This document shows positions 1,501-61,303 of a DNA stretch of 64,000 nucleotides, one piece after another. The stretch covers positions 6,743 to 70,742 of the forward strand of contig JAIPIB010000004.1 of NCBI GenBank assembly GCA_021734905.1. Reading direction: 5' to 3'. Within the stretch, counting starts at the first letter, position 1, and each line of letters begins with the position of its first letter. The notes under the pieces are model-generated. The model was given only the letters and a program-made list of their open reading frames with translations. It searched no databases and was not told where the DNA came from. The DNA is from Minisyncoccota bacterium (lineage in GTDB: Bacteria; Patescibacteriota; Minisyncoccia; Phycocordibacterales; UBA918). Made by a program: the position numbers and the translations under genes.

Positions 1501-1502
1501 CA

Positions 1503-41410: not shown

Positions 41411-41412
41411 AT

Positions 41413-46437: not shown

Positions 46438-47063
46438 GTTTCACGTGAAACATTTACGATTTGTGCCTATACACTATATAGTTTCATATGAAACCACATG
46501 GCAAAACACAATGAAATTGGTAAATTAGGAGAGGATTTGGCCGCAAAATGGCTTAGAAATATAGATTTTGCAATTCTGGAAAGGAACTACCTTAAAAAGT
46601 ATGGAGAAATTGATATTGTTGCACGTGAAACAGAAATAATTCACTTTATTGAGGTTAAAACTGTTTCATATGAAACAAAGCGTATACTTGAAGACTCTGT
46701 TTCTCGTGGAACGTGGCGCCCTGAGGAAAATGTTCATTTTGAGAAACAAAAACGACTTGCGCGGACCATTGAGGCATGGATTCATGAAAATGAATATTAT
46801 GGTGACTGGCAAATTGATGTCCTTACGGTACGAGTAGTTCCACGTGAAAAGTTTGCTAGTTTTATGATGATCGAGAACGTGATATTTGAATAGTTCCATG
46901 TGGAACAAAGGAATAACGTTCCACGTGAAACACATAATCTAATTATGTGACTAAAAATCAATGTTTTGAGTTTAGTTAACATAGGTCTGGCCTATGTAAC
47001 TATTTTTGAGTAGTAAAACAGTATGTTTCATATGAAACGTACCGTTTGTGTTCCGTGTGGAAC
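46438..47063. repeat. Array of at least 9 related 14-bp palindromes around and inside the YraN-like gene (GTTTCACGTGAAAC / GTTTCATATGAAAC / GTTCCACGTGGAAC-like)
   Basis: Perfect GTTTCACGTGAAAC at 46438. Perfect GTTTCATATGAAAC at 46481 (4 bp before the start codon), at ~46655 (inside the CDS) and at ~47025. Half-site hybrids occur at ~46621, ~46835, ~46893, ~46918 and ~47050. Confidence 0.7.
46498..46893 (+). CDS. YraN/UPF0102-family putative endonuclease
   Basis: 131 aa. The N-terminal GKLGEDLAAKWLRNIDFAILERNY...GEIDIVARE pattern is typical of YraN. Confidence 0.7.
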   Translation: MAKHNEIGKLGEDLAAKWLRNIDFAILERNYLKKYGEIDIVARETEIIHFIEVKTVSYETKRILEDSVSRGTWRPEENVHFEKQKRLARTIEAWIHENEYYGDWQIDVLTVRVVPREKFASFMMIENVIFE

Positions 47064-47783: not shown

Positions 47784-48173
47784 TTATGCCCGTTGAAGGG
47801 CTTGGACTTGTTGTGGCTGGGTTGCGGGTCGTACGGGACTTCTTTGACTTGGACGTTGTATTTCGTCTCCAGAATGCTCAAAAAGCGGAAGTTGCCCCAT
47901 CCGTTCTTCGTTTTCGGCTATCCATTTTGATAACTTAATGTATGGGCAGGAAGCCCAAAAAGCCTCCCATAAGAAACCTGCGCCCATCAAAAAGGCAAAT
48001 GCAACAGCCACGTATTTCCAGGTGCCTTCACTGGTTGAGGTCAGGAATGGTGTGACTCCAACAAAGAGGCTTGCGAGCACCAATTCGGGCAAAGTTGCTG
48101 TGAATCCTCGAAGAAAGAGCAGTTCGGAGCCGGAAAATTCGATCCCCGTTGTAATGCCAAATTTAAGTTTCAT
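47784..48173 (-). CDS. Small membrane protein
   Basis: Start is set at MKLKFGITTG, which has a strong RBS (AAGGAGGGTTTTCC ATG). Three hydrophobic segments. Confidence 0.4.
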   Translation of the reverse strand: MKLKFGITTGIEFSGSELLFLRGFTATLPELVLASLFVGVTPFLTSTSEGTWKYVAVAFAFLMGAGFLWEAFWASCPYIKLSKWIAENEERMGQLPLFEHSGDEIQRPSQRSPVRPATQPQQVQALQRA

Positions 48174-48317
48174 GGAAAACCCTCCTTGAAAAATTGTAAG
48201 TGGAGCTACGTTACTGTATATATTATGCAGGAGATAATGTATTTGGTCAACCAAGCAGTATGTGGTTAAAATTATCTTTATCTATGTAGGTGCAATATAA
48301 TTTTGATATAATCGAGT

Positions 48318-48749
48318 ATGATTTTTAAGAAGGAACCAGTTGATTTTAAAACTAAAATGGACGTTGTCGCATGTTATGTTCAACATAAAGGGAAGTTCCT
48401 TTTGCTCAAGAGACAGCCCCATAAGTCGCATGGTGGGAAGTGGGGTCTTCCGGCAGGGAAGGTAGGTGTGGGGGAAAGTTACGAGAGCGCTGTCGTAAGA
48501 GAAGTATCTGAAGAGACAGGTATTGAAATTAAAAAAGAAGATTTTAAACAACTTCAAACATTGTGGGTACGGATTGAAGGTTTGGATTTTCAGTATCACA
48601 CGTTTGCAGTAGAACTTGCTTCTTTGTTAGAGATAACCCTTAGTGATGAGGAACATCAAGAGTATGTTTGGGTATCACCAGAAGAATCACTTCAAGTTGA
48701 TACGATTCATGATTTAAGAGAATGTACGAAACTGTTTTTTAGTCTCTAA
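48318..48749 (+). CDS. NUDIX hydrolase
   Basis: Nudix box GKVGVGESYESAVVREVSEETGIEI (Gx5Ex7REVxEETG). Confidence 0.8.
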   Translation: MIFKKEPVDFKTKMDVVACYVQHKGKFLLLKRQPHKSHGGKWGLPAGKVGVGESYESAVVREVSEETGIEIKKEDFKQLQTLWVRIEGLDFQYHTFAVELASLLEITLSDEEHQEYVWVSPEESLQVDTIHDLRECTKLFFSL

Positions 48750-48764
48750 ATCATTCCTTCGTGG

Positions 48765-49352
48765 TTGATTTTTTTAAGGTATACTTCGTGTATGAATATA
48801 ATTTTTCTTATCATAGTTTTTCTTCTCGGGGTTGGGACGTATGCGGGCGTTAATTATCTAAATGACAAAAACCCTGTAGACTCAAGTATCGATACTGTTG
48901 AGATGATACCTAGTGAAAAAGCTGATATAAAGGTGGCTGAGCCAGCCGAAGAGACAAAAACTACTGTGTCCAAAGGTAGCCCAACGATAGATCTAAGTAA
49001 TCAAGGGCTCGTCAAAGTCCAAGGATCTATTTTTGATAAAATAAACACGGAAGTACTCAATCTTTCAAACAATAACCTCAGTGGGTCATTGTCATCAGAG
49101 ATCGGGCACTTAAAAAATCTCCGCATTTTGGATCTCAGCAACAATAACTTCACCGGTGTGCCGGCAGAAATTGGACAACTTTCGAATCTCGAAGTGCTTG
49201 ATTTGTCAGGGAATCCAATCACCGGCCTTCCGTATGAGCTTGGAAACCTTAAGAATTTGAAAATCCTTGATCTCAGAAATACCAATTATTCAGAGCAGGA
49301 CCTCACGGTCATTAAAGCAGGACTTCCTCAAAATATTGAAATCCTTAAATGA
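48765..49352 (+). CDS. Leucine-rich-repeat protein with N-terminal TM anchor
   Basis: At least six LRR units (LNLSNNNLSGSL, LDLSNNNFTGVP, LDLSGNPITGLP, LDLRNTN...). Confidence 0.7.
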   Translation: MIFLRYTSCMNIIFLIIVFLLGVGTYAGVNYLNDKNPVDSSIDTVEMIPSEKADIKVAEPAEETKTTVSKGSPTIDLSNQGLVKVQGSIFDKINTEVLNLSNNNLSGSLSSEIGHLKNLRILDLSNNNFTGVPAEIGQLSNLEVLDLSGNPITGLPYELGNLKNLKILDLRNTNYSEQDLTVIKAGLPQNIEILK

Positions 49353-49689
49353 GAATAAGGAACACTGAAACTTACAGTTTCAGTACCCATTCAGGATAAT
49401 CTTCTTCGCTTCACTCGAAAAGATATCTCTGAATAGCTTCAGTTCCATATTGTCGTGGAGTCAGGGATCTTTCATTACATGAACGGTTCAGGTTGTATGA
49501 CCGTTTCTTCTTTTAGTATTTGTCGGGGAGCCGGGTGAGACAGTCCTGGAGGCTGTCGCAAGACCTTGAGCAGTTGTTGCGAAAGGTGTACAGCGTCTGT
49601 AAGACGGAATCCGGACCACTCCTTTCTCCGAAAGCCACAATAATCTCCCAGATTATTGGTTCAATTTGGTGTCTTTGTCCTAGTCTGGG

Positions 49690-49760
49690 TCGGGGAGCCG
49701 GGAATCGAACCCGGACCACTCGGTCCCAAACCGAGTACACTACCACTATGCTACACCCCG
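49690..49760 (-). tRNA. tRNA-Pro (anticodon TGG)
   Basis: Minus-strand cloverleaf with anticodon stem CTCGG/CCGAG and loop TTTGGGA, T-arm CCGGG-TTCGATT-CCCGG and a 3' acceptor CTCCCCG+A. One T:T mismatch in the acceptor stem (position 6:67) and a 3-bp D-stem lower the confidence. Confidence 0.65.
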
Positions 49761-49804
49761 ACCAAGACAGGGACGAGATCTAAGACCAAGACACCAAACT
49801 GAAC

Positions 49805-49841
49805 CCCAAACCGAGTACACTACCACTATGCTACACCCCGA
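49805..49841 (-). repeat. 37-bp exact duplicate of the tRNA-Pro 5' half (acceptor through anticodon loop), 44 bp upstream of the gene
   Basis: CCCAAACCGAGTACACTACCACTATGCTACACCCCGA occurs at 49725-49761 (within the tRNA) and again at 49805-49841. The tRNA 3' end (TCGGGGAGCCGGG) is also copied at 49524-49536. Confidence 0.8.
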
Positions 49842-49854
49842 TGCAGCGAGAGAA

Positions 49855-49958
49855 GTCACAAGGCTGTAATTCACTCTCGCAAATATCTTAAATCAAAGTT
49901 TACTTGGATTTAAGATATTTGCGAGAGTGAAAGTATGCTTTGCATACGCCTTGTGACT
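49855..49958. repeat. 104-bp composite palindrome (outer 11-bp and inner 23-bp perfect inverted repeats)
   Basis: Outer arms are AGTCACAAGGC...GCCTTGTGACT. Inner arms are CACTCTCGCAAATATCTTAAATC / GATTTAAGATATTTGCGAGAGTG around a 13-nt centre. Confidence 0.7.
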
Positions 49959-50175
49959 TCCGAGCAAAGAGGGAATGTATCGAGCCGTCAGGCGAGGATA
50001 CACCTCAACTTACCCAATTACGAAATCAGAATGTCTAACTTCGTGACCACGATAATACCATCCGTAGGCTAAAAATGCGAATACCAGCCCATGTGTTTGA
50101 AGAAGATTCATGAGTGTCACATTCTAGGAATTTAGTATTTTTGGATGTATTCAAAACTCTGTTACAATACCGCCG

Positions 50176-51096
50176 ATGATTACACATTATTTTAAGACAA
50201 CAGAGGATACACAGCTTTCCACATGTCCTGAACCAAGAGTTGGAATCTGGACGCATGTTGTTGCTCCGAAAGAGGAGGAGCTTGAGGCACTTTCGGAACT
50301 CTATGGACTTGATGAAACAATTATCAAGGACATTGAAGACTTTTTTGAGGTGCCCCGTTTTGAACAAGAGGGAACTGCTTCATACTTTTTTACGAGATAC
50401 CCCTATGATCTTGAAGATATTGATATTGATACAGTACCTATTCTGATCGTTCTCGGTGAAACATTTTTGATCACCATAGCAGAACAGGAAGTGCCGTTTT
50501 TAAAACCTTTTTTAGATGGGAAGAGAATTTTTTCTACAACACATAAAACAAAATTGTTTTTGGAATTTGTATCAGAACTCATGATTACTTATGAGCGTAA
50601 ACTGACACGAACACGAAAGATGGTGCTCCGAGACACGGGAAGAGTTCGATCAATTAAAGCTCGAGATATTCAGAGGCTGGTATTTTTTGAACAGGAAATC
50701 AATGAGACTATCTCAGCGCTTGTTCCAACACATGATTGGCTGAAGCAACTTACCAAAGGGAATTACATTCAGATGTTTAGTGAAGACCGCGAACTTCTTG
50801 AGGATCTTCTCATTGCGAACAATCAGTTAGTTGATTCATCAAAGTCGATTCTCAAGACAATTCAAAATATTCGTGGAGCAAGTGAATCGATCCTGACACA
50901 GAAATTGAATAGCACTATCAGAATGCTTACAGGATTGACGATTGTTCTTACTATCCCAACACTGATCTCGTCACTGTTTGGTATGAACGTACCACTTCCA
51001 TTGCAAAACAACCCATATGGCTTCTGGTTAATCATTACAATCATTGTTGTGGCGGTAGCGTTCACAATCTACTTCTTACGTAATCGTTGGATATGA
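50176..51096 (+). CDS. corA: Magnesium/cobalt transporter CorA
   Basis: 306 aa. GMN motif (FGMNVPLP) between two C-terminal TM helices, plus the CorA cytoplasmic domain. Confidence 0.85.
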   Translation: MITHYFKTTEDTQLSTCPEPRVGIWTHVVAPKEEELEALSELYGLDETIIKDIEDFFEVPRFEQEGTASYFFTRYPYDLEDIDIDTVPILIVLGETFLITIAEQEVPFLKPFLDGKRIFSTTHKTKLFLEFVSELMITYERKLTRTRKMVLRDTGRVRSIKARDIQRLVFFEQEINETISALVPTHDWLKQLTKGNYIQMFSEDRELLEDLLIANNQLVDSSKSILKTIQNIRGASESILTQKLNSTIRMLTGLTIVLTIPTLISSLFGMNVPLPLQNNPYGFWLIITIIVVAVAFTIYFLRNRWI

Positions 51097-51713
51097 ATAT
51101 AGAGAAGAAACAAATTGTATTCATTCACGGTGGAAATGCATATAGCGAGTATAAAAATTTTCTTGAATGGCTACGCGTAAAAGAAATTGAAGACCCGCTT
51201 GAAGAAGGTGTTTTTAAAAAATGGCAACCAACGTTGCGTACATCACTTTCGCAATCATATGACGTTTATTACCCAGCAATGCCGAATAGTAAAAATGCGA
51301 AGTATGAGGAGTGGAAGATATGGTTTGAGCGGCATCACGCGTTTCTCCGGGACGGCGTCACTCTCATAGGGCACTCGCTCGGGGGATACTTTTTGGCAAA
51401 GTACCTTAGTGAAGAAAAAATGCCAGTTTCGGTACACGCGCTGTATTTCCTCGCGGCACCTTTCGAGAATGATGATTTTGGTGGGGAAGATGGAGGAGAC
51501 TTTGCGTTTGATTCACAAAATCTCCATCGACTTGCTCTGCAAGTCGATGGAGTGTACATTTTTCATTCCAAAGATGACTCTGTTGTTCCATACACACACG
51601 CACTAAAGTATGCAGAAGCACTCCCCGGTGCAGAGCTTGTATCATTTGAAGATAAAAATCATTTTCTCCATGAAAAATTTCCTGAAATTATTGAACATAT
51701 TCAGAAACATTAA
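51087..51713 (+). CDS. Alpha/beta-hydrolase, YdeN/RBBP9-like serine hydrolase
   Basis: 208 aa. Nucleophile elbow GHSLGG and a Ser-Asp-His arrangement (HSKDD...NHFL). Confidence 0.7.
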   Translation: MDMNIEKKQIVFIHGGNAYSEYKNFLEWLRVKEIEDPLEEGVFKKWQPTLRTSLSQSYDVYYPAMPNSKNAKYEEWKIWFERHHAFLRDGVTLIGHSLGGYFLAKYLSEEKMPVSVHALYFLAAPFENDDFGGEDGGDFAFDSQNLHRLALQVDGVYIFHSKDDSVVPYTHALKYAEALPGAELVSFEDKNHFLHEKFPEIIEHIQKH

Positions 51714-52510
51714 TCTTCCTTAGAAGATTTGTCACCCAAAATATTTGTTGATTCCCCGTACTCACCTTGGGTTTTTTTCCAGAGGAGCTCAAATATTTGT
51801 TGCATTGCATGGGCAAATTCAGTGCTTTCAATAATAATTGCTTGCTTGGAGTGCATAATGACGATACGGACACCCCACCCAAACATTTCAAAAGAACAGT
51901 CTGCACTATAAATTGATTCAGGGAGGAATTTTGCATTGATACTCCCTACCGAAGTACCAAAAAATCTTTTATAAGGCTGTAGGTCTTTGTCGTCGGGGGT
52001 GAACCCACGCACGCTGATGTTGAGTTTTATTTTTGCTTCATTCCATGGGATAAAGACCTCGTTGTGTACTTCTTGTTCAATATCGCGCGCTCGAGCAAAA
52101 AACCCAACAATCTCCGTACCTTCAAAATCCTTTAACTTATATTCATAAGCTTGTTTGAGTCCTGCAGTTCCTTCAAAGTAAAGAATATTCGGCTTGTCGC
52201 TCTTCTTTCGTTGCATTGCGAGAAGTTCGGGGATTACTTTCTTTGCTTCTTTCACTCGTTGCTCCACATCCTCAACATAACTTTCGGGGGAGCGTGCTAT
52301 ATACATGCGTTTTTTCTCACCCGTCATCTGCACAATGAGTCCTTTTTCTACGAGTTCCTCCGCAATAACGTACGCAGTGGGGCGTTTAAGCCGAGATTTT
52401 TTTGCAATTTTATATGGTGTAGATGGGCCAAGTTCAAGAAGGGCAAGGTAGACGCGTGCCTCCTTTTCGGTGAGATTTAGTTTCTTCAGAGCTTGAATAA
52501 GTGGTTCCAT
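51710..52510 (-). CDS. TrmB-family transcriptional regulator
   Basis: N-terminal winged HTH (LTEKEARVYLALLELGPSTPYKIAKKSRLKRPTAYVIAEELVEKGLI), typical of TrmB. Confidence 0.65.
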   Translation of the reverse strand: MEPLIQALKKLNLTEKEARVYLALLELGPSTPYKIAKKSRLKRPTAYVIAEELVEKGLIVQMTGEKKRMYIARSPESYVEDVEQRVKEAKKVIPELLAMQRKKSDKPNILYFEGTAGLKQAYEYKLKDFEGTEIVGFFARARDIEQEVHNEVFIPWNEAKIKLNISVRGFTPDDKDLQPYKRFFGTSVGSINAKFLPESIYSADCSFEMFGWGVRIVIMHSKQAIIIESTEFAHAMQQIFELLWKKTQGEYGESTNILGDKSSKED

Positions 52511-52645
52511 AGAGCAAGTATAGCGAATATATAAAAATAGTCAATAATTTTGACAAATACAAAGTAGATATTGAATATATCTATATTTATAAACATAAAA
52601 TAAAGAATTAAGCAGATACATTCTGTTTTAAAATAGACAGTAATA

Positions 52646-52674
52646 TTGACATAGCGCAAATACTCCGGTATTAT
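52646..52674 (+). promoter_or_regulatory. Sigma-70-like promoter (TTGACA-17 bp-TATTAT) upstream of the receiver-domain gene
   Basis: Perfect -35 hexamer, 17-bp spacer and a near-consensus -10, about 90 bp before the ATG at 52767. Confidence 0.5.
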
Positions 52675-52766
52675 ATTGCACAGTTGATAAGCAAGAAATT
52701 ATCAGATCTTTCAAATCCGCGAATTTTTCGCAACCTACATGCCTGGGGGTCAAACTGGGTAAGGAG

Positions 52767-53291
52767 ATGAGCATGGAAAAGCTGAACATTCTGGTGATTG
52801 AAGACAACGTCGCCCACCAACAAGCCGCTCAGGAGCAGCTTTCTGAGCATAATCTAACAATCGTCGGTAGTTTCCCCGAGGCATTGCGAATCTTAGGATC
52901 GTACTCCTTTGTGCGAATAGGGAAAGAAGGATACACATACGAGGGAAACTTCGATGTTGTACTCACCGACATGGAAATGCCTGTTTGTCGCCTTGATAAT
53001 CTTGATCGATCTGTTGTGAAAGATATATCAGCGCCATATGGGTTAGTCCTCGCACTGCGAGCGGCTCAAGTTGGAGTTAAGTACGTTGCGATGATCACTG
53101 ATACAAATCATCACCAGGGAGCAATGAGTAACGCTCTCGATATGGTTACCGGTGCATACTGGAGCCATGGTGGCGGAATGTTTCAGATTGGTCAATCAAA
53201 AGTACTCTTTGCACATGCCGAGACTAAAGCCAACACGGAAAACGTGCGGGTAAAGCAGTGGCATGAAGCATTGAAACTTCTTCTTGGATGA
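52767..53291 (+). CDS. Stand-alone CheY-like receiver-domain protein
   Basis: ILVIEDN at the N-terminus and DVVLTDMEMP at the phospho-acceptor Asp position. No output domain is recognisable. Confidence 0.6.
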   Translation: MSMEKLNILVIEDNVAHQQAAQEQLSEHNLTIVGSFPEALRILGSYSFVRIGKEGYTYEGNFDVVLTDMEMPVCRLDNLDRSVVKDISAPYGLVLALRAAQVGVKYVAMITDTNHHQGAMSNALDMVTGAYWSHGGGMFQIGQSKVLFAHAETKANTENVRVKQWHEALKLLLG

Positions 53292-53596
53292 TTTCCACAC
53301 GCAGACCCCAGTCTGACTGCGTGTAATAAATGAATGGGACGCTCGTAGCGAAGAAAAGTACGAGCACGACAGAGGGATAAGAGACCGAAGCCCTGTCAAA
53401 AGCTTTCTGGTAGATCAGCTTAAACTACCCGTTCGCCCAAACGTGATTGGTGCATTGGCGAGTTGAGTGTTTACTCCTCCTCGCCATCTTTATACAGTTT
53501 CTGAAATTGTCGGAAACTTTTAGAGATTTGTTCTTTCACATTGAACACCGGCATACTGCCAACCGCACCCCAGGTGAGTGGGTAAAGGAGATTGGG

Positions 53597-53746
53597 ATGG
53601 ACAAACAAGAGATTATTGACCAGATCAGTATGCTGCTCGGTCAACTTCTCGCTGAATCTCGCGGGAACAAAGCGGCGATTGCGCTCATCACTGAAATGAT
53701 GAGTTTGATCGGTAAAATTTTTGATTCATTTACTTCGGGAGAATAA
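53597..53746 (+). CDS. Small ORF (49 aa) behind the conserved leader motif
   Basis: RBS TAAAGGAGATTGGG ATG, translation MDKQEIIDQISMLLGQLL... The longer upstream extension in the ORF track runs through the conserved non-coding leader and is probably not translated. Confidence 0.35.
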   Translation: MDKQEIIDQISMLLGQLLAESRGNKAAIALITEMMSLIGKIFDSFTSGE

Positions 53747-53748
53747 AA

Positions 53749-54120
53749 ATGGAAAAGATTCTCGTTGTGGACGACGAAGCACCGATGCTTGATGGGTTGC
53801 TTCGCGTTTCAGGGTTTGAGATTGTTTTTGCCGAAAATGAAAAACAGGCAAGGGCAGTGCTCGAGACGCAACAGATTTCCATCATACTTATGGATGGGAA
53901 TCTTGATCCAGGGAATGATCTCTGGGGGCGCGATGTAGTGAAGCGCCTGCGTTCGTCTGGGTACACACTTCTGATTTGCATGTTTAGCTCCGATAAGGGG
54001 ATGAATGTGGAAGGTGTGGAAGCTGGGGCAGATTCGTCGTTCAAGAAAGACTGGAATGATGATGAAATGTCCGAGCGACTCGGTGAGCATCTCAAAACTT
54101 TGATGCGGGGATCCCAGTGA
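53749..54120 (+). CDS. Stand-alone CheY-like receiver-domain protein
   Basis: 123 aa. ILVVDDE, the phospho-acceptor-position Asp (IILMDGNLDPG) and a conserved K region. Confidence 0.65.
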   Translation: MEKILVVDDEAPMLDGLLRVSGFEIVFAENEKQARAVLETQQISIILMDGNLDPGNDLWGRDVVKRLRSSGYTLLICMFSSDKGMNVEGVEAGADSSFKKDWNDDEMSERLGEHLKTLMRGSQ

Positions 54121-54280
54121 AAAAATAATCTGGGGCGAGACCGTGGTGGAAACAAAAAACGTTTCCACCTTCTTATCAGGATTTTAAATTAAAGTTTGAA
54201 ATTCTGTAGGGATAGTTCTTTTACATTAAACATCGGCATATTGCCAACTGCACCTCGGGCACAGGGGTAAGGAGACGAGT

Positions 54281-54538
54281 ATGAGTACAACGTACTGGCG
54301 TGAAAATACTCTTGTTCGCCACAAGGGAGAGATCGTCTCCGTGCAGAAAAATGGAGATGACCGCCGCGAACTAGACAATGTATCGTCTGGAGACCGTCGT
54401 TCCCGTCAAATCGGGAAGAGGCACTGGCTCCGCAAGGAATCTAATGGGTGGAATTCTGGTGGTGGCTATTGGGACTATGTTTCCATGAAGCTGCCTGGCA
54501 AACCAGAACGAAACCTACGGAGACCTGTAGACAGCTAG
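54281..54538 (+). CDS. Hypothetical small basic protein behind the second copy of the leader motif
   Basis: 85 aa. RBS GGGGTAAGGAGACGAGT ATG. The leader is about 80% identical to the one preceding the 53597 ORF. Confidence 0.3.
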   Translation: MSTTYWRENTLVRHKGEIVSVQKNGDDRRELDNVSSGDRRSRQIGKRHWLRKESNGWNSGGGYWDYVSMKLPGKPERNLRRPVDS

Positions 54539-55312
54539 GGCATGAGCGGGGATCTGGGGCAACACATAACCCTCAGGCGAGACCGCATTTCGAATGAATG
54601 GTCTGCGACGGCAGATTGCGCGGGGTTTCGAAAGATCCTCGAAGGCACAGACCAAGTTAATGTCAGAGTAACGACGTTAACCCAGTGATGGCCAATGTCA
54701 TATCTTCTCCTCGACGAGAAGATATGACCTTAGATAAACCAAAGATTTTGGGTTTATCAGGCATCGAGTCTGTGTAATTCTTCCACTATTCATACCCAAT
54801 GACCTGTAGCGGGTTCCATACATATGAATAGTTGGCGTAGCTTTTCAAGCTATGTGAGGCTGAGCGTCCTCAGTCAATTCCCAAGAGGACTTACAACCTC
54901 CTCTTGGGATCTTCATGAAGTTTCTGAAATCGTCGGAAACTTTTAGAGATTTTGTTCTTTCCAAACTAACACAAGGAGATTGCTATGTTGATCGATTCTG
55001 CTGAGGCATGGGAAGCGTGTAAGGTTCTCATGTTCATGTCTGGGGTCCTCGGGTTTGCAGTCGGGTTTTTTCTTCGCGATCGTTTCTGGGATGTAAAACA
55101 GAAAAATTCGCGACCGAAAGCAGACGTATATCAATTTCCGAAGCGAGGAAGTTAGGACCTTCCTCGGCTTTATACAGTTTCTGAATTTTCGGGAGTTGTT
55201 AGAGAGAAAGTTCATTTCAACATCAAATTTTCAAATCTGTTCAAGTTCGAAAATTGCAAAGATTTTATCTTGTCTGGTTAGTACAAGAATTAGTAATTAT
55301 AGTAAATTTATT

Positions 55313-56680
55313 ATGACAAGCTCGTATTATGTAATTGGTGCAGTACTACTCTACTTTGTCGCGCTGACTGTCGTATCGTATGTAACTGGAAAGAAACATA
55401 ACAATGCGCAGTTTATTTCTGGTGGGTACAAAATACCCGCATTGGGGACATTTTCATCATTGTTCGTGAGCACGATTGATGGTGTCGGTTTGGTCTTCCT
55501 AGTCACACTCGCGGCCTCTATCGGATTTGGTTTGTACTGGTTTGCTATCGGTATTTTTCTCACCGCCCTCCTGTTCTGTATCCAAGCACCTCGAATTAGA
55601 AAACTGAGTGAAGAGAAAAAATTTCTTAACATCACCGACTTACTTAAGTCACAGCTGGGTACAGTTACAGCGGGACTCGCCGTTATTATTGTTACGATTC
55701 TTATAGCAGCGCATTCTGCTTCACTCCTCTATATCTGTGGGCAAATATTTTCCGCAATTTTTGGTTCGACGTTGACGGTGAGCATAATCGTCACTTCGGT
55801 AGTCGTTGGAGGGTACATTTACTTTGGTGGATATAAGGCAGTCATTGCTACTGATATTGTACAATTTTTAGCAATCATTCTTTTACTCGGGGCATCATTA
55901 TTTATTGTTGATTTTCCTTCGGTTAGCTTTGCCCAGCATTCATTTCTTATGAATGATAGTCTCAGTGGTGTTTTTGGAATCATTGTTTTTTCTCTGATTA
56001 TGTTCTATACCGTTCCTGCCATATGGCAGAGGATATTTACTTCGCAGGATCTACGTTCTACGAAAAAATCGCTACTCCTGTTTGGGTTAGCGTATGTCCC
56101 CGTATACTTTGTCATAATTGTGTTAGCCCTAACACTTTTTAGCATGTTCTCAACTATTGATCCGAGTCAGTTGCTCTACACGCTTTCTAGTGGTCAGGCG
56201 AGCCCTTTCCTTGGTGTCATACTGAGTGTGTCGCTTCTTGCGTTAACAATGTCATCACTGGATACACAGGTATATATTTTCCTTTCAACAATTGCATCGA
56301 ATTGGCTCAAGATTGATAAAGAAAGTAATTCTGAAAAGTATGTATCGGTGCTTAAGGTGTTGATCGCAATTTCATTTATCCTTATGACAGTGATTGCGCT
56401 TACGATATCGAACGTTGTGTCATTTGTACTCAGCGCGTTCTCACTATTGAGTGTCTTAGCACCGGCCTTGTTTGTTGCCGTGTATAGTGAAAAAGAAAGT
56501 CGAGTACTGGATTATTCAATGGCTACAGTTACCATCTTTGGTATAGCCGTATTCTTCTACATGATGGCCAACGCGATGTTTGTCGATTTATTTACAAGCG
56601 CAATCCCGGGCCTTGCGACCATCATTGTCACCTTTGTGGGTTGGCTAGCATGGGAATTATTCGACCTAGAAGGTAATTAA
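55313..56680 (+). CDS. Sodium:solute symporter family transporter
   Basis: About 13 TM helices with an SSF-like N-terminal pattern (GKKHNNAQFISGGYKIPALG). The start is taken at MTSSYYVIG; the ORF track start is 39 codons upstream. Confidence 0.7.
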   Translation: MTSSYYVIGAVLLYFVALTVVSYVTGKKHNNAQFISGGYKIPALGTFSSLFVSTIDGVGLVFLVTLAASIGFGLYWFAIGIFLTALLFCIQAPRIRKLSEEKKFLNITDLLKSQLGTVTAGLAVIIVTILIAAHSASLLYICGQIFSAIFGSTLTVSIIVTSVVVGGYIYFGGYKAVIATDIVQFLAIILLLGASLFIVDFPSVSFAQHSFLMNDSLSGVFGIIVFSLIMFYTVPAIWQRIFTSQDLRSTKKSLLLFGLAYVPVYFVIIVLALTLFSMFSTIDPSQLLYTLSSGQASPFLGVILSVSLLALTMSSLDTQVYIFLSTIASNWLKIDKESNSEKYVSVLKVLIAISFILMTVIALTISNVVSFVLSAFSLLSVLAPALFVAVYSEKESRVLDYSMATVTIFGIAVFFYMMANAMFVDLFTSAIPGLATIIVTFVGWLAWELFDLEGN

Positions 56681-56714
56681 TTACTTTTCAGCTCTGACCT
56701 GATAGAGTCTTAGT

Positions 56715-57248
56715 ATGAGTGTTGTACCAAAAATAATTTTACTAGGAGGTCCTCAAGCAACGGGAAAAACTACTTTAGCCAAAGAGCTTTCGTCTCGGTT
56801 GGATGTACCTTGGATCTCAACAGACCAGATACGAACAATTTGTGGCATCATCCCTAAAGGAACGAGGTTACTGTCGGAAGAAATTGAGAACAATGAAGAG
56901 ATATGGAAAGGGGTGGAACGTTTCATCAAAAGCCCTTTCCCTTGGGAGGCTGTGATTATTGAGGGAGTAGCTGTTTTACCGCATTTTGTTTCCTCGTTAG
57001 ACATTGAGGTTAGCCCAGTCTTTATTATTGATACTGACGCGAAAAGAATTGCAGAAACAATTTATCAAAGAAGTTTACTCTCGTGGATAAATACAAAGAC
57101 AGAGGAGCAGCAGAGTAAAAAGGTTGCAGACATCATTGAGTTCAATAATTTTATAAAAAAAGAAACACAGAAATACAACCTTCCAATAATAGAAGTTTCA
57201 AAATCAAATCAAGATATTGAAAAAGTGATGGAATTGCTTGTTGGTTGA
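56715..57248 (+). CDS. P-loop NTPase / small-molecule kinase-like protein
   Basis: 177 aa. Walker A (LLGGPQATGKTT). Confidence 0.55.
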   Translation: MSVVPKIILLGGPQATGKTTLAKELSSRLDVPWISTDQIRTICGIIPKGTRLLSEEIENNEEIWKGVERFIKSPFPWEAVIIEGVAVLPHFVSSLDIEVSPVFIIDTDAKRIAETIYQRSLLSWINTKTEEQQSKKVADIIEFNNFIKKETQKYNLPIIEVSKSNQDIEKVMELLVG

Positions 57249-57440
57249 AAGTAGGAATATATACTCGCATTACCCGAGCGTGATCGCGACATTGGCGAGT
57301 TGAGTGTATTCATCTCCTCGCCATCTTTATCAAGGTTTTAACTTAGGTTGAAGGTTTGATAGAGGGTAAACAGGCGGTTCCTGGAGGGAATCGTCTGTTT
57401 TTTGCAAAAAAACAGACGCAAAAATGATATACTTGTACAT

Positions 57441-57845
57441 ATGGAACATTCGCCAAAATTTCACTCTGATAAAGAAGAATTATCGAAACCAGTACCGTAT
57501 GGAAGGGAGGCGCTTTCTGTGGAGTCAGCACTTGTTACTCAAATTGCACTTATGAGGCACATGATTCCTTCAGAATTGAGAAAATTCATGAGTCAGAGCG
57601 ACGGTGTACATGTTAGTGCAGAGGACTTCTTTTTTGAAAAATGGCAAAAAAAATATGCAATACCGTTTTCTGATTATTGCGATATCCATGCTGATGACAC
57701 AGAACTGATTGAGAGAATGCAGAATCAAGAACTTAAGCCGGAGGACATTCAGACACTTCATGGGTATTTGGAAGGCGAAGCTTTAGAAAGACCATTTTTT
57801 ACACAAGAGGAAAAAGATGAATTTATGAGGAGGAACGTCCATTAA
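57441..57845 (+). CDS. Hypothetical protein
   Basis: Start is taken at MEHSPKF. The upstream ATG of the ORF track lies inside a perfect hairpin (CGTCTGTTTTTTGCAAAAAAACAGACG). Confidence 0.35.
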   Translation: MEHSPKFHSDKEELSKPVPYGREALSVESALVTQIALMRHMIPSELRKFMSQSDGVHVSAEDFFFEKWQKKYAIPFSDYCDIHADDTELIERMQNQELKPEDIQTLHGYLEGEALERPFFTQEEKDEFMRRNVH

Positions 57846-58000
57846 ACGCGAGGATTTTTTGGATGGAGAAGAGTGTCTAGACATGATTTCCTTCCTAAAA
57901 TACCGTGTTTTTGAGTATAAAGTATGGTAATTTAAGTATTCTAGTGAATTCTGTGAAAGAAGTGGGTTTTTTCACCGTCATCGCTTATAATGGGTTCCAC

Positions 58001-58612
58001 ATGGCTTCAGAAGAACAAAAGAAGACAAAAAGGAAAACAGGGACTGACTCCATCGTGGAAGGGCACGAGGAGCGTTTTTTGAAAGCATTTGACGAGTATT
58101 CTGATGCACTGTTTCGTCATGCAATATACAGACTTTCTGATCGCGAAAGAGCGATTGAGATTGTCCACGACACCTTCACAAAGGTGTGGAGCTATTTACG
58201 CTCTGGGCATGAAGTCGATACATACAAGCCATTTTTATATAAGGTCATCAACAATCTTATTATCGATGAATATCGAAGGAGAAAAGAACTTTCTCTCGAT
58301 TCGATACTGGCTGAAGAAGGTGTCGATGAAGGTTCATTTCCTGAACTGTATGAAGGGGGAATCGAGGAACTTACGTTTATGCTCGATGCAAAGAAAGCAA
58401 GCTTGCTCATTTGCGAATTACCCATCGTATACCGAGAAGTCCTCACGCTTCGGTTTGTTGACGGACTTGGACCAAAGGAGATAAGTGAACTCACCGAAGA
58501 AACAGAGAATGTCGTCTCTGTCCGCATCCACCGAGCTCTCAAGATCCTCAAGGGCCTTATTCAGAAGAATGAGGAAGAGGCAGAGACAAAACGCTTAAAT
58601 ACAACACTATGA
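58001..58612 (+). CDS. ECF-type sigma-70 family RNA polymerase sigma factor
   Basis: Region 2 (FDEYSDALFRHAIYRL...NNLIIDEYRRR) and region 4 (VLTLRFVDGLGPKEISELTEETENVVSVRIHRALKIL). The start is taken at MASEEQKK. Confidence 0.75.
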   Translation: MASEEQKKTKRKTGTDSIVEGHEERFLKAFDEYSDALFRHAIYRLSDRERAIEIVHDTFTKVWSYLRSGHEVDTYKPFLYKVINNLIIDEYRRRKELSLDSILAEEGVDEGSFPELYEGGIEELTFMLDAKKASLLICELPIVYREVLTLRFVDGLGPKEISELTEETENVVSVRIHRALKILKGLIQKNEEEAETKRLNTTL

Positions 58613-59961
58613 AATCTTTTGAAAACGACTTAAAAAAATACGCAGAAAAAATACATCTTAAAGTCTCAGAGAGACGGGAGCTTCGTGAGCGTGTTTTGTC
58701 GTACATGGAATATCACCCACTTCCAAAGCAAACACATACTATTGAGAAGCACGCGCAAGGGATTCTCTCAGAGTCTTTTGTTATGTTTCATTTTAATACA
58801 AAGTACATGCGTATAGCTGGAGGCTTTTTCGCTCTGGTATTGATCGTCGCTCCTTTTGTTGCCGAGAAGTCTGTTCCGGGTGACGCTCTCTATCTTGTTA
58901 AGACAGGTTTTAATGAAACCATTCAAGAGCAGTTTGCTAATTCTCCATATAAGAAGATTGAGTTTGAAACAAAACTTATGGAGCGACGTATTGCAGAAGC
59001 GAGAGTCCTTGCAAGCGAAGGAAAACTTACTCAAGAAGTTACGACCCAGCTCGCAGCAACAGTGAAAGAGCACACGGATGCAGTACAAACTGGCCTTGCT
59101 GAACTCCGTACTCAAGACGCTGACGGTGCCGCAATTGCAGAAATTGCTTTCAATTCGTCACTGGAGGTTCAGTCAGCAGTTCTTGGAGCAAATGAAAGTA
59201 CAAATAGCACGTCATCAATTGATTCGATTCTTACTGTCGTGAATGATGCTCGTGATGTGGTTGTCTTGAATCAAGGATCGGTACCGTCATTTGAGGGACT
59301 AAGTGCTCGTGTAGAAATCGAGACGACACGTGCTTATGAATTATTGAAGACTATACGACTGACAGCTACACCTGAAGAGATTGTTGATATTGAGCGTCGA
59401 CTTTCAGACGGCGATAGGCTTTTATTTGAGGCAAAAGAGCGATATTTAACAGAACCTGATCGTGCAATAGAGGATCTTGCAGCAACGCTGAAGCTCTACC
59501 AAAAACTCATTGTTTTCATGGCTGATATAAATATTCAAAAGACTGTTTCGTTGGAATCTATCGTTCCGGTAGTCTTAAGTTACGAAGAGAGGGTCACTAC
59601 AGTGAACGCCGAAATTCAGAAAATTGGTGAGGTTGCCACAACAGTTGTACAACGTCTTGAGTTAATTGATGATAAAGGAGTTCAAGAAAAGGTGGAGAGT
59701 GGAGTTTCTCGAGTCTATGAATTGCTTGGTCAAGCAGCGGCAGCGATTGAGATTAAGGAAGTAAAGAATGCTGAAAGTAGTATTGGTGAAGCACGAGCAC
59801 TTGTTACAGATTTGAATACGATGACAGTGTTTTCGAAAGAATCTGAAGATAATGACTTGATTCCTGCGGATGGGGGAAAGGACACTGAAGAGAAGACGTC
59901 TAGCGAGCAAAGTTTGATCAACAAAGCCTCAAGTACAAAAAGTATAGAACCACTATCTTAA
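58609..59961 (+). CDS. Putative anti-sigma factor (cytoplasmic N-domain, one TM, large extracytoplasmic domain)
   Basis: Start overlaps the sigma gene stop by 4 bp (ATGA). N-terminal ~60 aa, then TM (IAGGFFALVLIVAPFV), then a ~350 aa alpha-helical extracytoplasmic domain. Confidence 0.45.
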   Translation: MKSFENDLKKYAEKIHLKVSERRELRERVLSYMEYHPLPKQTHTIEKHAQGILSESFVMFHFNTKYMRIAGGFFALVLIVAPFVAEKSVPGDALYLVKTGFNETIQEQFANSPYKKIEFETKLMERRIAEARVLASEGKLTQEVTTQLAATVKEHTDAVQTGLAELRTQDADGAAIAEIAFNSSLEVQSAVLGANESTNSTSSIDSILTVVNDARDVVVLNQGSVPSFEGLSARVEIETTRAYELLKTIRLTATPEEIVDIERRLSDGDRLLFEAKERYLTEPDRAIEDLAATLKLYQKLIVFMADINIQKTVSLESIVPVVLSYEERVTTVNAEIQKIGEVATTVVQRLELIDDKGVQEKVESGVSRVYELLGQAAAAIEIKEVKNAESSIGEARALVTDLNTMTVFSKESEDNDLIPADGGKDTEEKTSSEQSLINKASSTKSIEPLS

Positions 59962-59972
59962 AAAGTATACGT

Positions 59973-60010
59973 AAAAAGCACAGTTGGACTTTTGTCAATT
60001 GTGCTTTTTA
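59973..60010. terminator. Bidirectional intrinsic terminator between the anti-sigma gene and the protease gene
   Basis: Stem AAAAGCACAGTTG / CAATTGTGCTTTTT. Confidence 0.55.
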
Positions 60011-60029
60011 CGTATTGCAGAAAAATTTA

Positions 60030-61193: not shown

Positions 61194-61303
61194 GTTGTCA
61201 TTGATTGTATCATGGGGTTTAAAGTGGGAACTGTTTATGCTAGAATCATCCGGGATAAGTGTGTGATGGTTGTGGCGACTATTTCACTGTATCTTCTTCA
61301 CTC

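What the first reader, a model, noticed from the sequence alone, without database searches (positions are those of the whole stretch)
52646..55215. Two orphan CheY-like receiver proteins plus small ORFs sharing a repeated ~100-nt leader motif; the motif recurs near 57290
The string GTTTCTGAAATYGTCGGAAACTTTTAGAGATTTGTTCTTT occurs at ~53497 and ~54917, and partially at ~55175. At 53541 and 54224 it is followed by a second conserved block containing a GGCATAYTGCC hairpin and an RBS-proximal hairpin, which precedes the small ORFs at 53597 and 54281. A separate 45-nt element (CATTGGCGAGTTGAGTGT...CTCCTCGCCATCTTTAT, with a GGCGAG/CTCGCC stem) occurs at 53447 and 57290. Two stand-alone receiver domains without a kinase or an output domain sit among these. 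Together this looks like a family of co-regulated small genes with a shared cis-regulatory leader (riboswitch- or attenuator-like), possibly under phosphorelay control.
Basis: seen in the sequence. Interest (0 to 1): 0.55.

Follow-up and report, generated by a model that had tools for sequence, protein, structure and literature searches.

The report
RNA punctuation marks between gene cassettes
The repeats are real: they are a conserved pair of RNA hairpins between the small genes of one operon in an ultra-small (CPR) bacterium, and in related genomes a self-cleaving hammerhead ribozyme sits in exactly the same place, so they most likely mark where a long transcript is cut into single-gene messages.

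Summary
All three repeated strings exist, none is expected by chance, and none is translated.

They form one modular unit, present five times at 52.6-57.4 kb. The unit is HP1, a GC-rich stem-loop of variable sequence. It is abutted by HP2, an 18-19 bp hairpin with a conserved base (UCUUUAU/AUAGAGAU). GUUCUUU follows, then either a short unstructured leader or a two-hairpin leader ("block C") and a strong ribosome-binding site.

The module is conserved in about 30 copies from about 20 other Patescibacteria contigs. It shows compensatory changes and pairing that favours the + strand. It always lies next to a divergent TrmB regulator gene, downstream of a single sigma-70 promoter.

The genes between modules differ between strains. 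Orthologues of the window's ORF85, and of a related 92-aa cargo gene, have a type III hammerhead ribozyme where other genomes have HP2.

Best reading (0.6): these are intercistronic RNA processing and insulation signals of a shuffled cassette operon. It is not a riboswitch. The two CheY-like proteins are cargo, with no sign that they control the array. The module is absent from Rfam 15. I rate it a new variant of a known kind.

The parts
51710..52510 (-). TrmB-family transcriptional regulator gene, divergent from the array. It is the only protein seen next to every array whose upstream flank was recovered.
   Evidence: Pfam PF01978 at 58 bits. The same TrmB(-)/array(+) arrangement occurs in L002, L006, L008, L018, L032, L013, L022 and L104.
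52517..52554 (-). TrmB promoter (TTGACT-16-TATACT), overlapping the conserved palindrome GTCAATAATTTTGAC (52540-52554). The palindrome is a likely TrmB operator.
   Evidence: Promoter scan scores 10/12. The palindrome is also seen in L002, L101 and L032. The operator role is an inference.
52646..52674 (+). Sigma-70 promoter of the array: TTGACA-17-TATTAT.
   Evidence: It scores 11/12 and is the only strong + strand promoter in 52300-57600. Equivalent promoters occur in L002, L006, L008, L014, L018, L032 and L101.
52685..52767 (+). Leader of cassette 1. It comprises a 5' hairpin (52685-52704), AUCUUUC, block C with HP3 (52719-52731) and HP4 (~52742-52759), and the ribosome-binding site AAGGAG.
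52773..53291 (+). Rec1: a divergent stand-alone REC-like protein (172 aa) with the family motif TDTNHH. It is cargo of cassette 1.
53292..53452 (+). T3: a conserved, structured RNA of about 165 nt that follows the first cassette.
   Evidence: RNAalifold on 6 sequences gives 5 helices, 10 pairs of which carry compensatory changes. It follows non-homologous ORFs in L018 and L032.
53457..53536 (+). Punctuation module 1: HP1 (53457-53485), HP2 (53486-53527), GUUCUUU (53530-53536).
   Evidence: (77 bits).
53538..53596 (+). Block C leader, copy 2: HP3 (53550-53560), HP4 (53569-53582), ribosome-binding site.
53597..54120 (+). Cassette 2 cargo: a 49-aa ORF (53597-53746) and Rec2, a canonical stand-alone REC domain (53749-54120).
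   Evidence: A Rec2-like cargo follows a module in L008.
54145..54221 (+). Punctuation module 2, with a diverged upper stem: HP1 (54145-54169), HP2 (54170-54212), GUUCUUU (54215-54221).
   Evidence: (32 bits).
54222..54280 (+). Block C leader, copy 3: HP3 (54235-54245), HP4 (54253-54267), ribosome-binding site.
54281..54538 (+). ORF85, the cargo of cassette 3. Its orthologues in L110 and L111 are preceded by a hammerhead ribozyme instead of HP2.
54539..54878 (+). Conserved non-coding region 3' of ORF85. Its first ~180 nt form a multi-stem structure.
   Evidence: Alignment with L110 and L111 gives 55 predicted pairs, 9 of them with compensatory changes.
54879..54960 (+). Punctuation module 3: HP1 (54879-54909), HP2 (54910-54950), GUUCUUU (54954-54960). 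A short G-poor leader and a ribosome-binding site follow.
   Evidence: (68 bits).
54985..55155 (+). ORF56, a predicted membrane peptide and the cargo of cassette 4.
   Evidence: It is 93% identical (aa) in L018, where the adjacent TrmB is only 66% identical.
55144..55206 (+). Punctuation module 4, degenerate and at the array's right end: HP1 (55144-55166) and HP2 (55168-55206).
   Evidence: 30 bits. Homology with L018 stops at 55208.
57273..57408 (+). Isolated fifth module behind the kinase gene: T3 tail, HP1 (57293-57323), an HP2 variant (57324-57366), then a strong intrinsic terminator (57368-57408).
   Evidence: (z = -5.7).

Best explanation
The region 52646-55206 is one operon. It is driven by a single sigma-70 promoter and lies next to a divergent TrmB regulator gene. 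It is built from exchangeable cassettes.

Each cassette is [structured 5' element]-GUUCUUU-[G-poor leader, or two-hairpin block C]-ribosome-binding site-ORF-[structured 3' element]-HP1.

I propose that this junction is an RNA punctuation mark. The polycistronic transcript is cut at or next to HP2 by a host endoribonuclease. RNase III acting on the long helix is one candidate. RNase Y cutting at the HP1/HP2 boundary is the other. I cannot tell which.

Cutting would leave the upstream message capped by HP1 at its 3' end. The downstream message would have a standard, context-independent 5' end and an open ribosome-binding site. HP1, with its interrupted U-tract, may also act as a leaky terminator that grades expression along the array.

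Shown here:
- the module's conservation and pairing;
- its stronger pairing on the + strand;
- the single promoter;
- the swap between hammerhead and HP2.

Inferred, not shown:
- that cleavage occurs at HP2;
- which nuclease does it;
- the effects on stability and translation.
For: 1. RNA rather than DNA. In 27 of 29 copies the + strand folds better than its reverse complement (sum -860 vs -680 kcal/mol; 72 G.U pairs). On a model-fitted alignment of 31 copies, 93% of cells are paired and 8 of 18 pairs carry double-sided changes; 0 of 500 shuffles reach this. The upper stem varies in length and sequence while pairing is kept.

2. One transcription unit. The only strong + strand promoter is at 52646. 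All genes lie on the + strand. The arrays in L002, L006, L032, L098 and L104 end in a canonical terminator with a long U-run, and a strong terminator follows the window's detached fifth module. Internal HP1s are followed by the interrupted tract UCUUUAUAAAG.

3. Functional substitution.
- A type III hammerhead ribozyme occupies the HP2 slot, 0-4 nt upstream of the same GUUCUUU-type motif, leader and ribosome-binding site. This is seen in L019 (45.3 bits, E=6e-7, full core), L021, L110 and L111, twice.
- Its helices I and II are 100% paired, with 7 covarying pairs in total.
- In L021 and L110 the ribozyme directly follows an HP1-type hairpin.
- The 92-aa cargo has HP2 in L006 and L103-L106 but a hammerhead in L021, and the downstream leaders are homologous.
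- The window's own ORF85 has HP2 where its orthologues have hammerheads.
- L111 alternates both kinds in one array.
- A hammerhead only makes sense if transcription reads through HP1.

4. Leader design. Short leaders contain almost no G until the ribosome-binding site.

5. An RNase Y gene is present in the window at 62230-63804. RNase Y is annotated next to the array in L104-L106.

6. Precedent. Clustered hammerheads that flank single genes in prophage polycistronic RNAs cleave in vitro (PMC3088659).
Against: - No transcript data were available, so cleavage at HP2 is inferred only from the ribozyme swap.
- HP1 and HP2 abut with 0-1 nt between them. That leaves little single-stranded RNA for RNase Y.
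- HP2 is slightly shorter than the ~20-22 bp that classic RNase III substrates have.
- No RNase III gene was seen in the 64-kb window, though most of the genome is outside it.
- RNase III cleavage would remove the 5' hairpin from the downstream message. The hammerhead product keeps its 5' structure, so the two outcomes are not strictly parallel.
- The sequence conservation of the HP2 base and of GUUCUUU is not explained by a non-specific nuclease.
- A very short helix III in three of the hammerheads may mean low activity.
Confidence: 0.6

Rival explanations
1. The module is a structural spacer only and is never cut. HP1 acts as a leaky terminator or 3' stabiliser. HP2 acts as a folding insulator that keeps each ribosome-binding site independent of upstream sequence.
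For: Both hairpins are stable and conserved. The U-rich tract after HP1 forms the 5' arm of HP2, which would explain its sequence conservation. The leaders are unstructured.
Against: A self-cleaving ribozyme in the same slot of orthologous cassettes points to cleavage as the selected function. An insulator alone would not need the conserved GUUCUUU.
Confidence: 0.15
2. Each cassette is an autonomous transcription unit. HP1 is its terminator, and the HP2/TAGAGAT/GTTCTTT region is a promoter or a palindromic operator for a dedicated factor such as TrmB or the nearby ECF sigma factor.
For: HP1 resembles a terminator stem, and the scan flags one of them (54145). The common form of HP2 is a near-perfect 12-bp inverted repeat. 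TAGAGAT lies 36-42 nt upstream of the start codon in short-leader cassettes. TrmB is always adjacent.
Against: - No sigma-70-like -35/-10 pair occurs in any module.
- The spacing between the conserved half-sites varies from about 43 to 52 nt, and the upper-stem sequence is replaced while pairing is kept. A DNA operator would not behave this way.
- The G.U pairs would be C.A mismatches on the other strand.
- Hammerhead-bearing junctions carry no promoter-like sequence and require read-through.
Confidence: 0.1
3. The module is primarily a DNA recombination site. It would be attC-like, or simply a homology block, and would mediate capture and shuffling of cassettes.
For: - Cargo differs between close relatives while the modules stay in place.
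- The ORF56 cassette is 94% identical (nt) to its L018 copy, and homology ends at module edges: it starts at 54910 and stops at 55208. TrmB DNA is only 69% identical.
- The same cargo occurs in different array positions.
- The array has 45-50% GC against 38-42% in the flanks.
Against: - No integrase or transposase lies beside the array in the window or in the arrays examined closely. The one integrase fragment, in L095, lies 6 kb from a Rec1 homologue that has no modules.
- No R''/R' core sites of the RYYYAAC/GTTRRRY type are present (read from the sequence).
- Replacement by a ribozyme argues for an RNA function.
- Shuffling could be a by-product of homologous recombination between repeated RNA modules.
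Confidence: 0.1
4. One reading: the shared leader, especially block C with its two small hairpins before the ribosome-binding site, is a riboswitch- or attenuator-like sensor that co-regulates the small genes, possibly through the receiver proteins.
For: Block C is conserved in 14 copies from 9 contigs. HP3 shows compensatory variants: GCGAA/UUCGC, GCGGA/UCCGC, GGCA/UGCC, GCCA/UGGC. The linker AACCGCAC is conserved. Block C follows the primary promoter in all seven arrays whose promoter-proximal leader was read.
Against: - It is very small (about 45 nt, two simple hairpins).
- It matches no Rfam family.
- It is optional, because many cassettes lack it.
- Its downstream genes are unrelated.
- No alternative pairing with the ribosome-binding site appears in the folds.
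- The receiver proteins have no RNA- or DNA-binding domain and are absent from many arrays.
Confidence: 0.07
5. HP1-HP2-GUUCUUU is itself a new class of self-cleaving ribozyme.
For: It shares its slot and flanks with hammerheads. Other ribozyme classes were discovered through exactly this kind of genomic association (own knowledge). The bulged U and the 3' tail are invariant.
Against: The architecture is two plain hairpins. Loop sequences vary, and no conserved junction or pseudoknot partner for the tail is apparent. Conservation sits mostly in paired positions.
Confidence: 0.04

Closest known systems
Hammerhead-ribozyme-punctuated polycistronic transcripts of prophages (Perreault et al. 2011, PMC3088659)
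   Same: Structured elements flank single genes or short gene blocks of variable identity in one transcription direction. The proposed role is to cut a long RNA into gene-length mRNAs. Related arrays here carry type III hammerheads in that role.
   Different: In the window, and in most copies, the slot holds a plain hairpin pair rather than a ribozyme. The arrays lie among chromosomal housekeeping-type genes of CPR bacteria next to a TrmB regulator gene, not in prophages.
RNase III processing hairpins between early genes of phages T7 and SP82 (own knowledge)
   Same: These are conserved long hairpins, often with a bulge or internal loop. They lie between small genes of one operon driven by host-type promoters. 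After cutting, the hairpins stay at mRNA ends.
   Different: HP2 is a little shorter (18-19 bp). It is always paired with a second, variable hairpin and followed by a fixed GUUCUUU. Cleavage is untested, and the RNase III gene has not been located.
RNase Y-dependent operon maturation in Firmicutes, e.g. cggR-gapA (own knowledge)
   Same: An endonucleolytic cut between cistrons, upstream of a stem-loop that then protects the downstream mRNA. RNase Y is encoded in the window and is annotated near related arrays.
   Different: No repeated, sequence-conserved module is known for RNase Y sites. Here almost no single-stranded linker exists between HP1 and HP2.
Synthetic ribozyme insulators such as RiboJ (own knowledge)
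   Same: A hammerhead or hairpin placed just upstream of the ribosome-binding site standardises the 5' UTR, so that expression is independent of upstream context.
   Different: Those are engineered parts. This would be a natural, evolved equivalent used repeatedly within one operon.
Integron gene-cassette arrays with attC sites
   Same: Both are same-orientation arrays of small, mostly unknown genes behind one promoter. Cassette content varies between relatives, and the repeats between cassettes are conserved in structure.
   Different: No integrase was found and no attC core sites are present. The repeats lie 5' of each gene together with a leader. Pairing and the ribozyme swap point to RNA function.
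REP/BIME extragenic palindromes
   Same: Both are intercistronic stem-loops that can stabilise upstream mRNA.
   Different: REP elements are dispersed genome-wide in both orientations. These modules are confined to one island per locus and always face the same way as the genes.

Membership tests
Hammerhead ribozyme, type III (RF00008) | Three helices around the core CUGANGA...GAAA, with an NUH cleavage triplet | tested here: not met
   For the window's modules there is no match at E<=10 in 52400-57600 and none with the locus-derived model R2. The feature is met only in related loci: L019, L021, L110 and L111.
RNase III processing site (T7 early type) | Intercistronic hairpin of about two helical turns in a polycistronic RNA | tested here: inconclusive
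   HP2 has 18-19 bp and one bulge, is 93% paired across 31 copies, and is intercistronic. That is slightly short of 20-22 bp.
RNase III processing site (T7 early type) | Cleavage by RNase III, and the enzyme encoded in the genome | not testable with these tools
   No RNA data were available. No RNase III signature occurs in the 64-kb window. The rest of the genome was not available.
Intrinsic (Rho-independent) terminator (tested on HP1) | GC-rich stem-loop | tested here: met
   All 29 copies have a stable HP1 of variable sequence.
Intrinsic (Rho-independent) terminator (tested on HP1) | An uninterrupted U-tract directly after the stem | tested here: not met
   The tail is UCUUUAUAAAG. Only the HP1 at 54145 passes the scan. 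True array ends carry U-runs of 6 or more.
Riboswitch / transcription attenuator | Match to a known aptamer class | tested here: not met
   Rfam 15 gives nothing at gathering or E-value thresholds.
Riboswitch / transcription attenuator | Mutually exclusive terminator/antiterminator pairing, or sequestration of the ribosome-binding site | tested here: not met
   In the minimum-energy folds the ribosome-binding site is unpaired in three of the four leaders and only partly paired in the Rec1 leader. No alternative pairing was evident on inspection.
Riboswitch / transcription attenuator | Association with functionally coherent genes | tested here: not met
   The downstream genes are unrelated ORFans, REC domains and one RpoA-CTD protein.
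Integron (attC cassette array) | Adjacent IntI tyrosine recombinase | tested here: not met
   None was found among the window ORFs at 40-64 kb or in the gene tables of the arrays examined.
Integron (attC cassette array) | attC core sites RYYYAAC/GTTRRRY flanking an imperfect palindrome | tested here: not met
   The module consensus (CTCTTTATAAAG...TTTTAGAGAT) has no such cores (read directly from the sequence).
Integron (attC cassette array) | Same-orientation cassettes whose content varies between relatives | tested here: met
REP/BIME or MITE repeats | Dispersed through the genome in many intergenic regions and in both orientations | tested here: not met
   The window has 5 copies, all within 52.6-57.4 kb and all on the + strand. 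Related loci carry 1-5 copies each, beside TrmB wherever the flank was recovered.
Response-regulator receiver domain (PF00072) | Profile match above the curated cut-off | tested here: met
   Rec2 scores 48.7 bits against a cut-off of 30.2. Rec1 scores only 18.2 bits, so for Rec1 this feature is not met.
Response-regulator receiver domain (PF00072) | The (beta-alpha)5 fold with the acidic pocket, Thr/Ser and Lys | tested here: met
   In the Rec1 family D13, D68, T111 and K163 are invariant. The family profile hits REC chains in PDB at E=1e-4. The top Foldseek hits are REC domains, though TM-scores are modest at 0.4-0.68.

The most novel reading that the evidence does not exclude
HP1-HP2-GUUCUUU would be a previously undescribed RNA-processing signal. 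It would be recognised by a dedicated or host nuclease or, least likely, would cleave itself. Together with hammerheads it would define 'RNA-punctuated' gene cassettes. The same conserved RNA modules would then supply the homology by which CPR bacteria exchange small genes and structured RNAs between genomes. That would make the array a recombinase-free counterpart of an integron, with built-in standard expression parts.
Probability: 0.25. Interest if true: 0.8.

Novelty: new variant of a known kind. Interest (0 to 1): 0.62.

Why it matters
Almost nothing is known about gene expression and RNA processing in CPR/Patescibacteria, which are largely uncultured.

This locus offers a compact, testable system: one promoter, a regulator gene alongside, and repeated RNA junctions. 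A known self-cleaving ribozyme in the same slot points to what those junctions do.

If the junctions are cut, they are natural standard parts that make each gene's translation independent of its neighbours. Synthetic biology had to invent that design with ribozyme insulators.

The same blocks may explain how small ORFan genes move between these reduced genomes.

The arrays also hold several uncatalogued structured RNAs (T1, T2, T3 and block C) that merit study.

Tried and rejected
- **Known RNA families.** Rfam 15 gave nothing but tRNAs over the whole window at gathering cut-offs, and nothing credible over 52400-57600 at E<=10.
- **Phage origin.** blastn of 52600-55250 against 50,697 phage records found no match. 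PHROGs gave nothing informative. Two scans of viral contigs with HP2 motifs gave 0 hits.
- **Hammerhead-plus-GTTCTTT pattern in viral contigs.** It returned 59 loci, but all lie in the coding region of one gut-phage gene family (...KHGLERNREFFVRDF...). They lack the CUGANGA core, so they are false positives.
- **Chance hits of the collection scans.** L012, L015/L017/L027, L031 and L035 lack the hairpins.
- **Sigma-70 promoter inside the modules.** Rejected.
- **ECF-type promoter (GGAAAC...GTTC).** Rejected on reading the sequence: the spacer is only 12 nt, and GGAAAC is lost in diverged copies.
- **CRISPR-like repeat (GTTTC...GAAAC).** Rejected because the spacings are irregular, at 1423 and 257 nt.
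- **boxA/nut-like antiterminator.** TCTTTATACA resembles boxA, from my own knowledge. Not pursued, because this stretch is the paired 5' arm of HP2.
- **MITE or REP element.** Rejected on distribution.
- **Rec1 as the array's own nuclease.** Rejected. It models as a REC fold and is absent from many arrays.
- **Hammerhead-like string at window 24261.** It lies in what appears to be coding sequence and has no helix II. It is a chance match.
- **Weak R1 hit at window 46580-46656.** It lies inside an ORF and is a chance match.
- **RNase III signature.** Not found in the window.

Full report
**What is in the sequence**

None is expected by chance.
- The 30-mer GTTTCTGAAATYGTCGGAAACTTTTAGAGA lies at 53497 and 54920.
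- Its 5' part recurs at 55166.
- The block with the GGCATAYTGCC hairpin lies at 53538 and 54223.
- CATTGGCGAGTTGAGTGT lies at 53453 and 57290.

Folding the intergenic regions shows that these are pieces of one unit, repeated five times.
- **HP1** is a GC-rich stem-loop whose sequence differs from copy to copy.
- **HP2** abuts HP1 with 0-1 nt between. It has a lower stem AUCUUUA/UAGAGAU, one bulged U or a small internal loop, and an upper stem of 9-13 bp.
- **GUUCUUU** follows 2-3 nt later in four of the five copies. The detached copy at 57293 has a terminator there instead.

The five units are at 53457-53536, 54145-54221, 54879-54960, 55144-55206 and 57293-57366.

After GUUCUUU comes one of two leaders. 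One is short, with almost no G before the ribosome-binding site (54961-54984). The other is "block C", two small hairpins (HP3 and HP4) ending at the ribosome-binding site (53538-53596 and 54222-54280). A third block C lies upstream of the first receiver gene at 52706-52767.

The array has 45-50% GC against 38-42% in the flanks.

**The genes**

The organism is a Candidatus Pacebacteria MAG (CPR/Patescibacteria).
- Rec2 (53749-54120) is a canonical stand-alone receiver.
- Rec1 (52773-53291) falls below the Pfam cut-off. Its family keeps the Asp, Asp, Thr and Lys positions and an unusual TDTNHH motif.
- The Rec1 family profile hits REC chains in PDB, and its model matches REC domains.
- The 49-, 85- and 56-aa ORFs match no family.
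- ORF85 and ORF56 have homologues elsewhere.

The module is not coding. It sits in all three frames relative to the next start codon, and two of its frames contain stop codons. The 98-99-aa ORF that runs across module 1 is a caller artefact.

**Conservation beyond this strain**

Contigs carrying Rec1 homologues show the same layout. A TrmB gene lies on the minus strand, followed by a sigma-70 promoter, block C, the first gene, and then modules between further genes. The cargo genes differ (L002, L006, L008).

A metagenome scan with a 3'-base pattern returned 21 loci, 17 of them genuine. The same scan of species-representative genomes returned three genuine loci.

There are 29 distinct copies, counting the window's own. 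In all of them HP1 is a different stem-loop placed directly against a conserved HP2.

A covariance model of HP2 finds 1-5 copies per locus, in one orientation. They lie beside TrmB wherever that flank was recovered.

On the model-fitted alignment of 31 copies, 93% of cells pair and 8 of 18 pairs show double-sided changes. No shuffle out of 500 reaches these values, and slid registers collapse to 28-62% paired. That alignment is fitted to the structure, so it leans towards it.

Independent support comes from copies whose upper stem is entirely different or longer yet still pairs. Examples are window 54170 and 57324, L002 11040, L008 2335 and 2900, and L101 1529.

**RNA, and which strand**

In 27 of 29 copies the + strand folds more stably than its reverse complement. 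The sums are -860 and -680 kcal/mol, and the + strand folds hold 72 G.U pairs. Two U.G pairs are conserved. This fits a transcript made in the direction of the genes. It does not fit a double-stranded DNA operator.

**One operon**

Between 52300 and 57600 the only strong + strand promoter is TTGACA-17-TATTAT at 52646. Its mirror image on the minus strand serves TrmB.

The modules hold no -35/-10 pair. Internal HP1s are followed by an interrupted U-tract, and only one passes a terminator scan.

The related arrays end in textbook terminators with long U-runs: L002, L006, L032, L098 and L104. In the window the strong terminator at 57368-57408 stands behind the detached fifth module.

**The decisive observation**

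An E-value scan of related loci against Rfam found type III hammerhead ribozymes in array orientation. L019 scored 45.3 bits (E=6e-7) and has the GUC site with the CUGAUGAG and CGAAAC cores. L021 scored 28.8 bits.

Both ribozymes sit exactly where HP2 sits elsewhere. They lie 0-4 nt upstream of GUUCUUU, the leader, the ribosome-binding site and the ORF. In L021 the ribozyme directly follows an HP1-type hairpin.

The cargo behind the L021 ribozyme is a 92-aa protein. Its orthologues in L006 and L103-L106 are preceded by HP1+HP2, and the leader sequence downstream is the same.

The window's own ORF85 is preceded by HP1+HP2. Its orthologues in L110 (64% identity) and L111 (58%) are preceded by hammerheads. 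L111 alternates hammerhead and HP1+HP2 junctions within one array.

The five ribozymes share an invariant core. Helices I and II are 100% paired, and seven pairs covary. A model built from them finds no copy in the window.

A hammerhead acts only as part of a transcript that runs through it. So these arrays are read through HP1, and the slot is a site of RNA cleavage. Hammerheads flanking single genes in polycistronic prophage RNAs are known and are active in vitro (PMC3088659).

**Mechanism proposed**

*Shown:* a conserved hairpin pair with stronger + strand pairing between cistrons of a single-promoter array, interchangeable with a self-cleaving ribozyme.

*Inferred:* HP1-HP2 is cut by a host endoribonuclease.
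- The upstream mRNA would end in HP1.
- The downstream mRNA would start with a standard structure or tail, followed by an unstructured leader.
- Each cassette would then be expressed independently of its neighbours.
- HP1 may also terminate part of the transcripts.

The candidate nucleases are RNase III, acting on the long helix, and RNase Y. An RNase Y gene lies at 62230-63804, and RNase Y is annotated beside the arrays in L104-L106. I cannot choose between the two.

The conserved identity of the HP2 base and of GUUCUUU remains unexplained. The 5' arm may be constrained because it doubles as the U-rich tract after HP1.

**Cassette turnover**

Against L018 the conserved blocks are the non-coding parts: promoter, T3, HP1, HP2 and block C. 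The ORFs are swapped.

The ORF56 cassette is 94% identical (nt) from the start of HP2 at 54910 to the 3' base of the next HP2 at 55208, where synteny ends. The adjacent TrmB is 69% identical at the DNA level and 66% at the protein level.

First cassettes encode Rec1, another REC-like protein, or unrelated ORFs in different genomes. One cargo carries an RNA polymerase alpha C-terminal domain. No recombinase lies beside the array in the window or in the arrays examined closely.

Exchange by recombination between the repeated RNA modules is plausible but unproven.

**Other structured RNAs in the arrays**
- **T3** (53292-53452) has five helices, ten pairs of which carry compensatory changes. It follows unrelated first ORFs.
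- The **region 3' of ORF85** is conserved and structured in L110 and L111.
- A **pseudoknot-like 3' element, T1**, recurs in L006, L008, L022, L024 and L032.
- **Block C** shows compensatory HP3 variants in 14 copies. It remains the best candidate for a true regulatory leader, but no feature of a riboswitch was met.

**Comparison and verdict**

The module is not a member of any Rfam family. It is not an integron attC site, not a REP element, and not a canonical terminator.

It works most like the processing hairpins between phage early genes, and like the hammerheads with which it alternates.

I rate it a new variant of a known kind, of moderate to high interest. It gives a concrete entry point into RNA processing and gene exchange in CPR bacteria.

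Noticed in passing
window 53292-53452 (also L002 10524-10692, L008 2138-2306, L018 2930-3090, L030 1236-1400, L032 1732-1898): T3 is a conserved RNA of about 165 nt directly after the first cassette's stop codon. It has five helices, 10 pairs of which carry compensatory changes. It follows non-homologous ORFs in different genomes and matches no Rfam family.
   Followed up: partly
window 54539-54878 (also L111 387-748, L110 1866-2029); short form at window 54105-54145: A conserved non-coding region lies 3' of ORF85. Its first ~180 nt form a multi-stem structure (GCGGGGAUC...GAUCCUCG enclosing two or three hairpins), with 9 compensatory pairs across only three sequences. Its function is unknown.
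   Followed up: partly
L006 1650-1725 and 2590-2665; L008 2800-2870; L022 ~1500-1570 (-); L024 (two copies); L032 2270-2320: T1 is a 3'-UTR element, CGCGAUUCUCUUCCGCG...GAGACAGGUUCCGAGGCNNACCUGACAAAAGGCCUCG. It has the look of an H-type pseudoknot, and both stems covary (CAGGU/ACCUG to UAGGU/ACCUA; GAGGC/GCCUC to GAAGC/GCUUC). It always lies just upstream of HP1 or of the final terminator.
   Followed up: partly
L019 1371-1425(+), L021 1361-1415(-), L110 1474-1545(+), L111 1-43 and 985-1055(+): A small family of type III hammerhead ribozymes in CPR cassette arrays. Most have a very short helix III (3-4 bp) and fall below the Rfam gathering score, so standard annotation would miss them.
   Followed up: yes
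window 52540-52554 (also L002 ~9802, L101 ~697, L032 ~1257): The palindrome GTCAATAATTTTGAC overlaps the TrmB promoter and is conserved between arrays. It is a likely TrmB autoregulatory operator.
   Followed up: no
window 52773-53291 and alignment A5: The Rec1 family has an invariant motif, TDTNHH(Q)GAMS, at the end of strand beta-4. Some members carry a Cys-rich insert resembling a zinc ribbon. The TrmB-Rec1 gene pair is kept in relatives down to about 38-46% identity that lack the hairpin modules (L095, L097, L098).
   Followed up: partly
L011 ~7340 and ~5530 (minus strand); L098 1290-1350 and 1830-1935: More distant relatives use other hairpins in the same slot, e.g. CCCAUCAGA...UCUGAUGGG AGAAAU. 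GUUC(U/C)UU, a CA-rich leader and the ribosome-binding site still follow. The GUUCUUU tail is therefore older than HP2 itself.
   Followed up: partly
window 55217-55315: The sodium:solute symporter gene (55313-56680) has no ribosome-binding site. TATAGT lies 9 nt upstream of its ATG, so it may be a leaderless mRNA with its own promoter. L018 shows a similar TATAGA-TTTT-ATG upstream of a NUDIX-like gene.
   Followed up: no
window 48000-62000: The array (52.8-55.0 kb) is 45-50% GC, against 38-42% for the flanking genes. This fits foreign origin, a high content of structured RNA, or both.
   Followed up: partly
window 40247-41883: A two-gene pair between tRNA genes: a 387-aa ATPase with an N-terminal KFKNFYSF-type P-loop region, and a 156-aa partner. 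It resembles ATPase-plus-small-partner anti-phage defence modules. It was not analysed.
   Followed up: no
L020 1457-1903: One array cargo is a 148-aa protein with an RNA polymerase alpha C-terminal domain (Pfam 56 bits). It is a free-standing alpha-CTD in a cassette.
   Followed up: no
L033 (CAYHNT010000044.1, labelled 'uncultured archaeon') and L032 (labelled Saccharibacteria): Genuine modules occur on contigs binned as an archaeon and as Saccharibacteria. This may reflect mis-binning, or transfer of the arrays between lineages.
   Followed up: no
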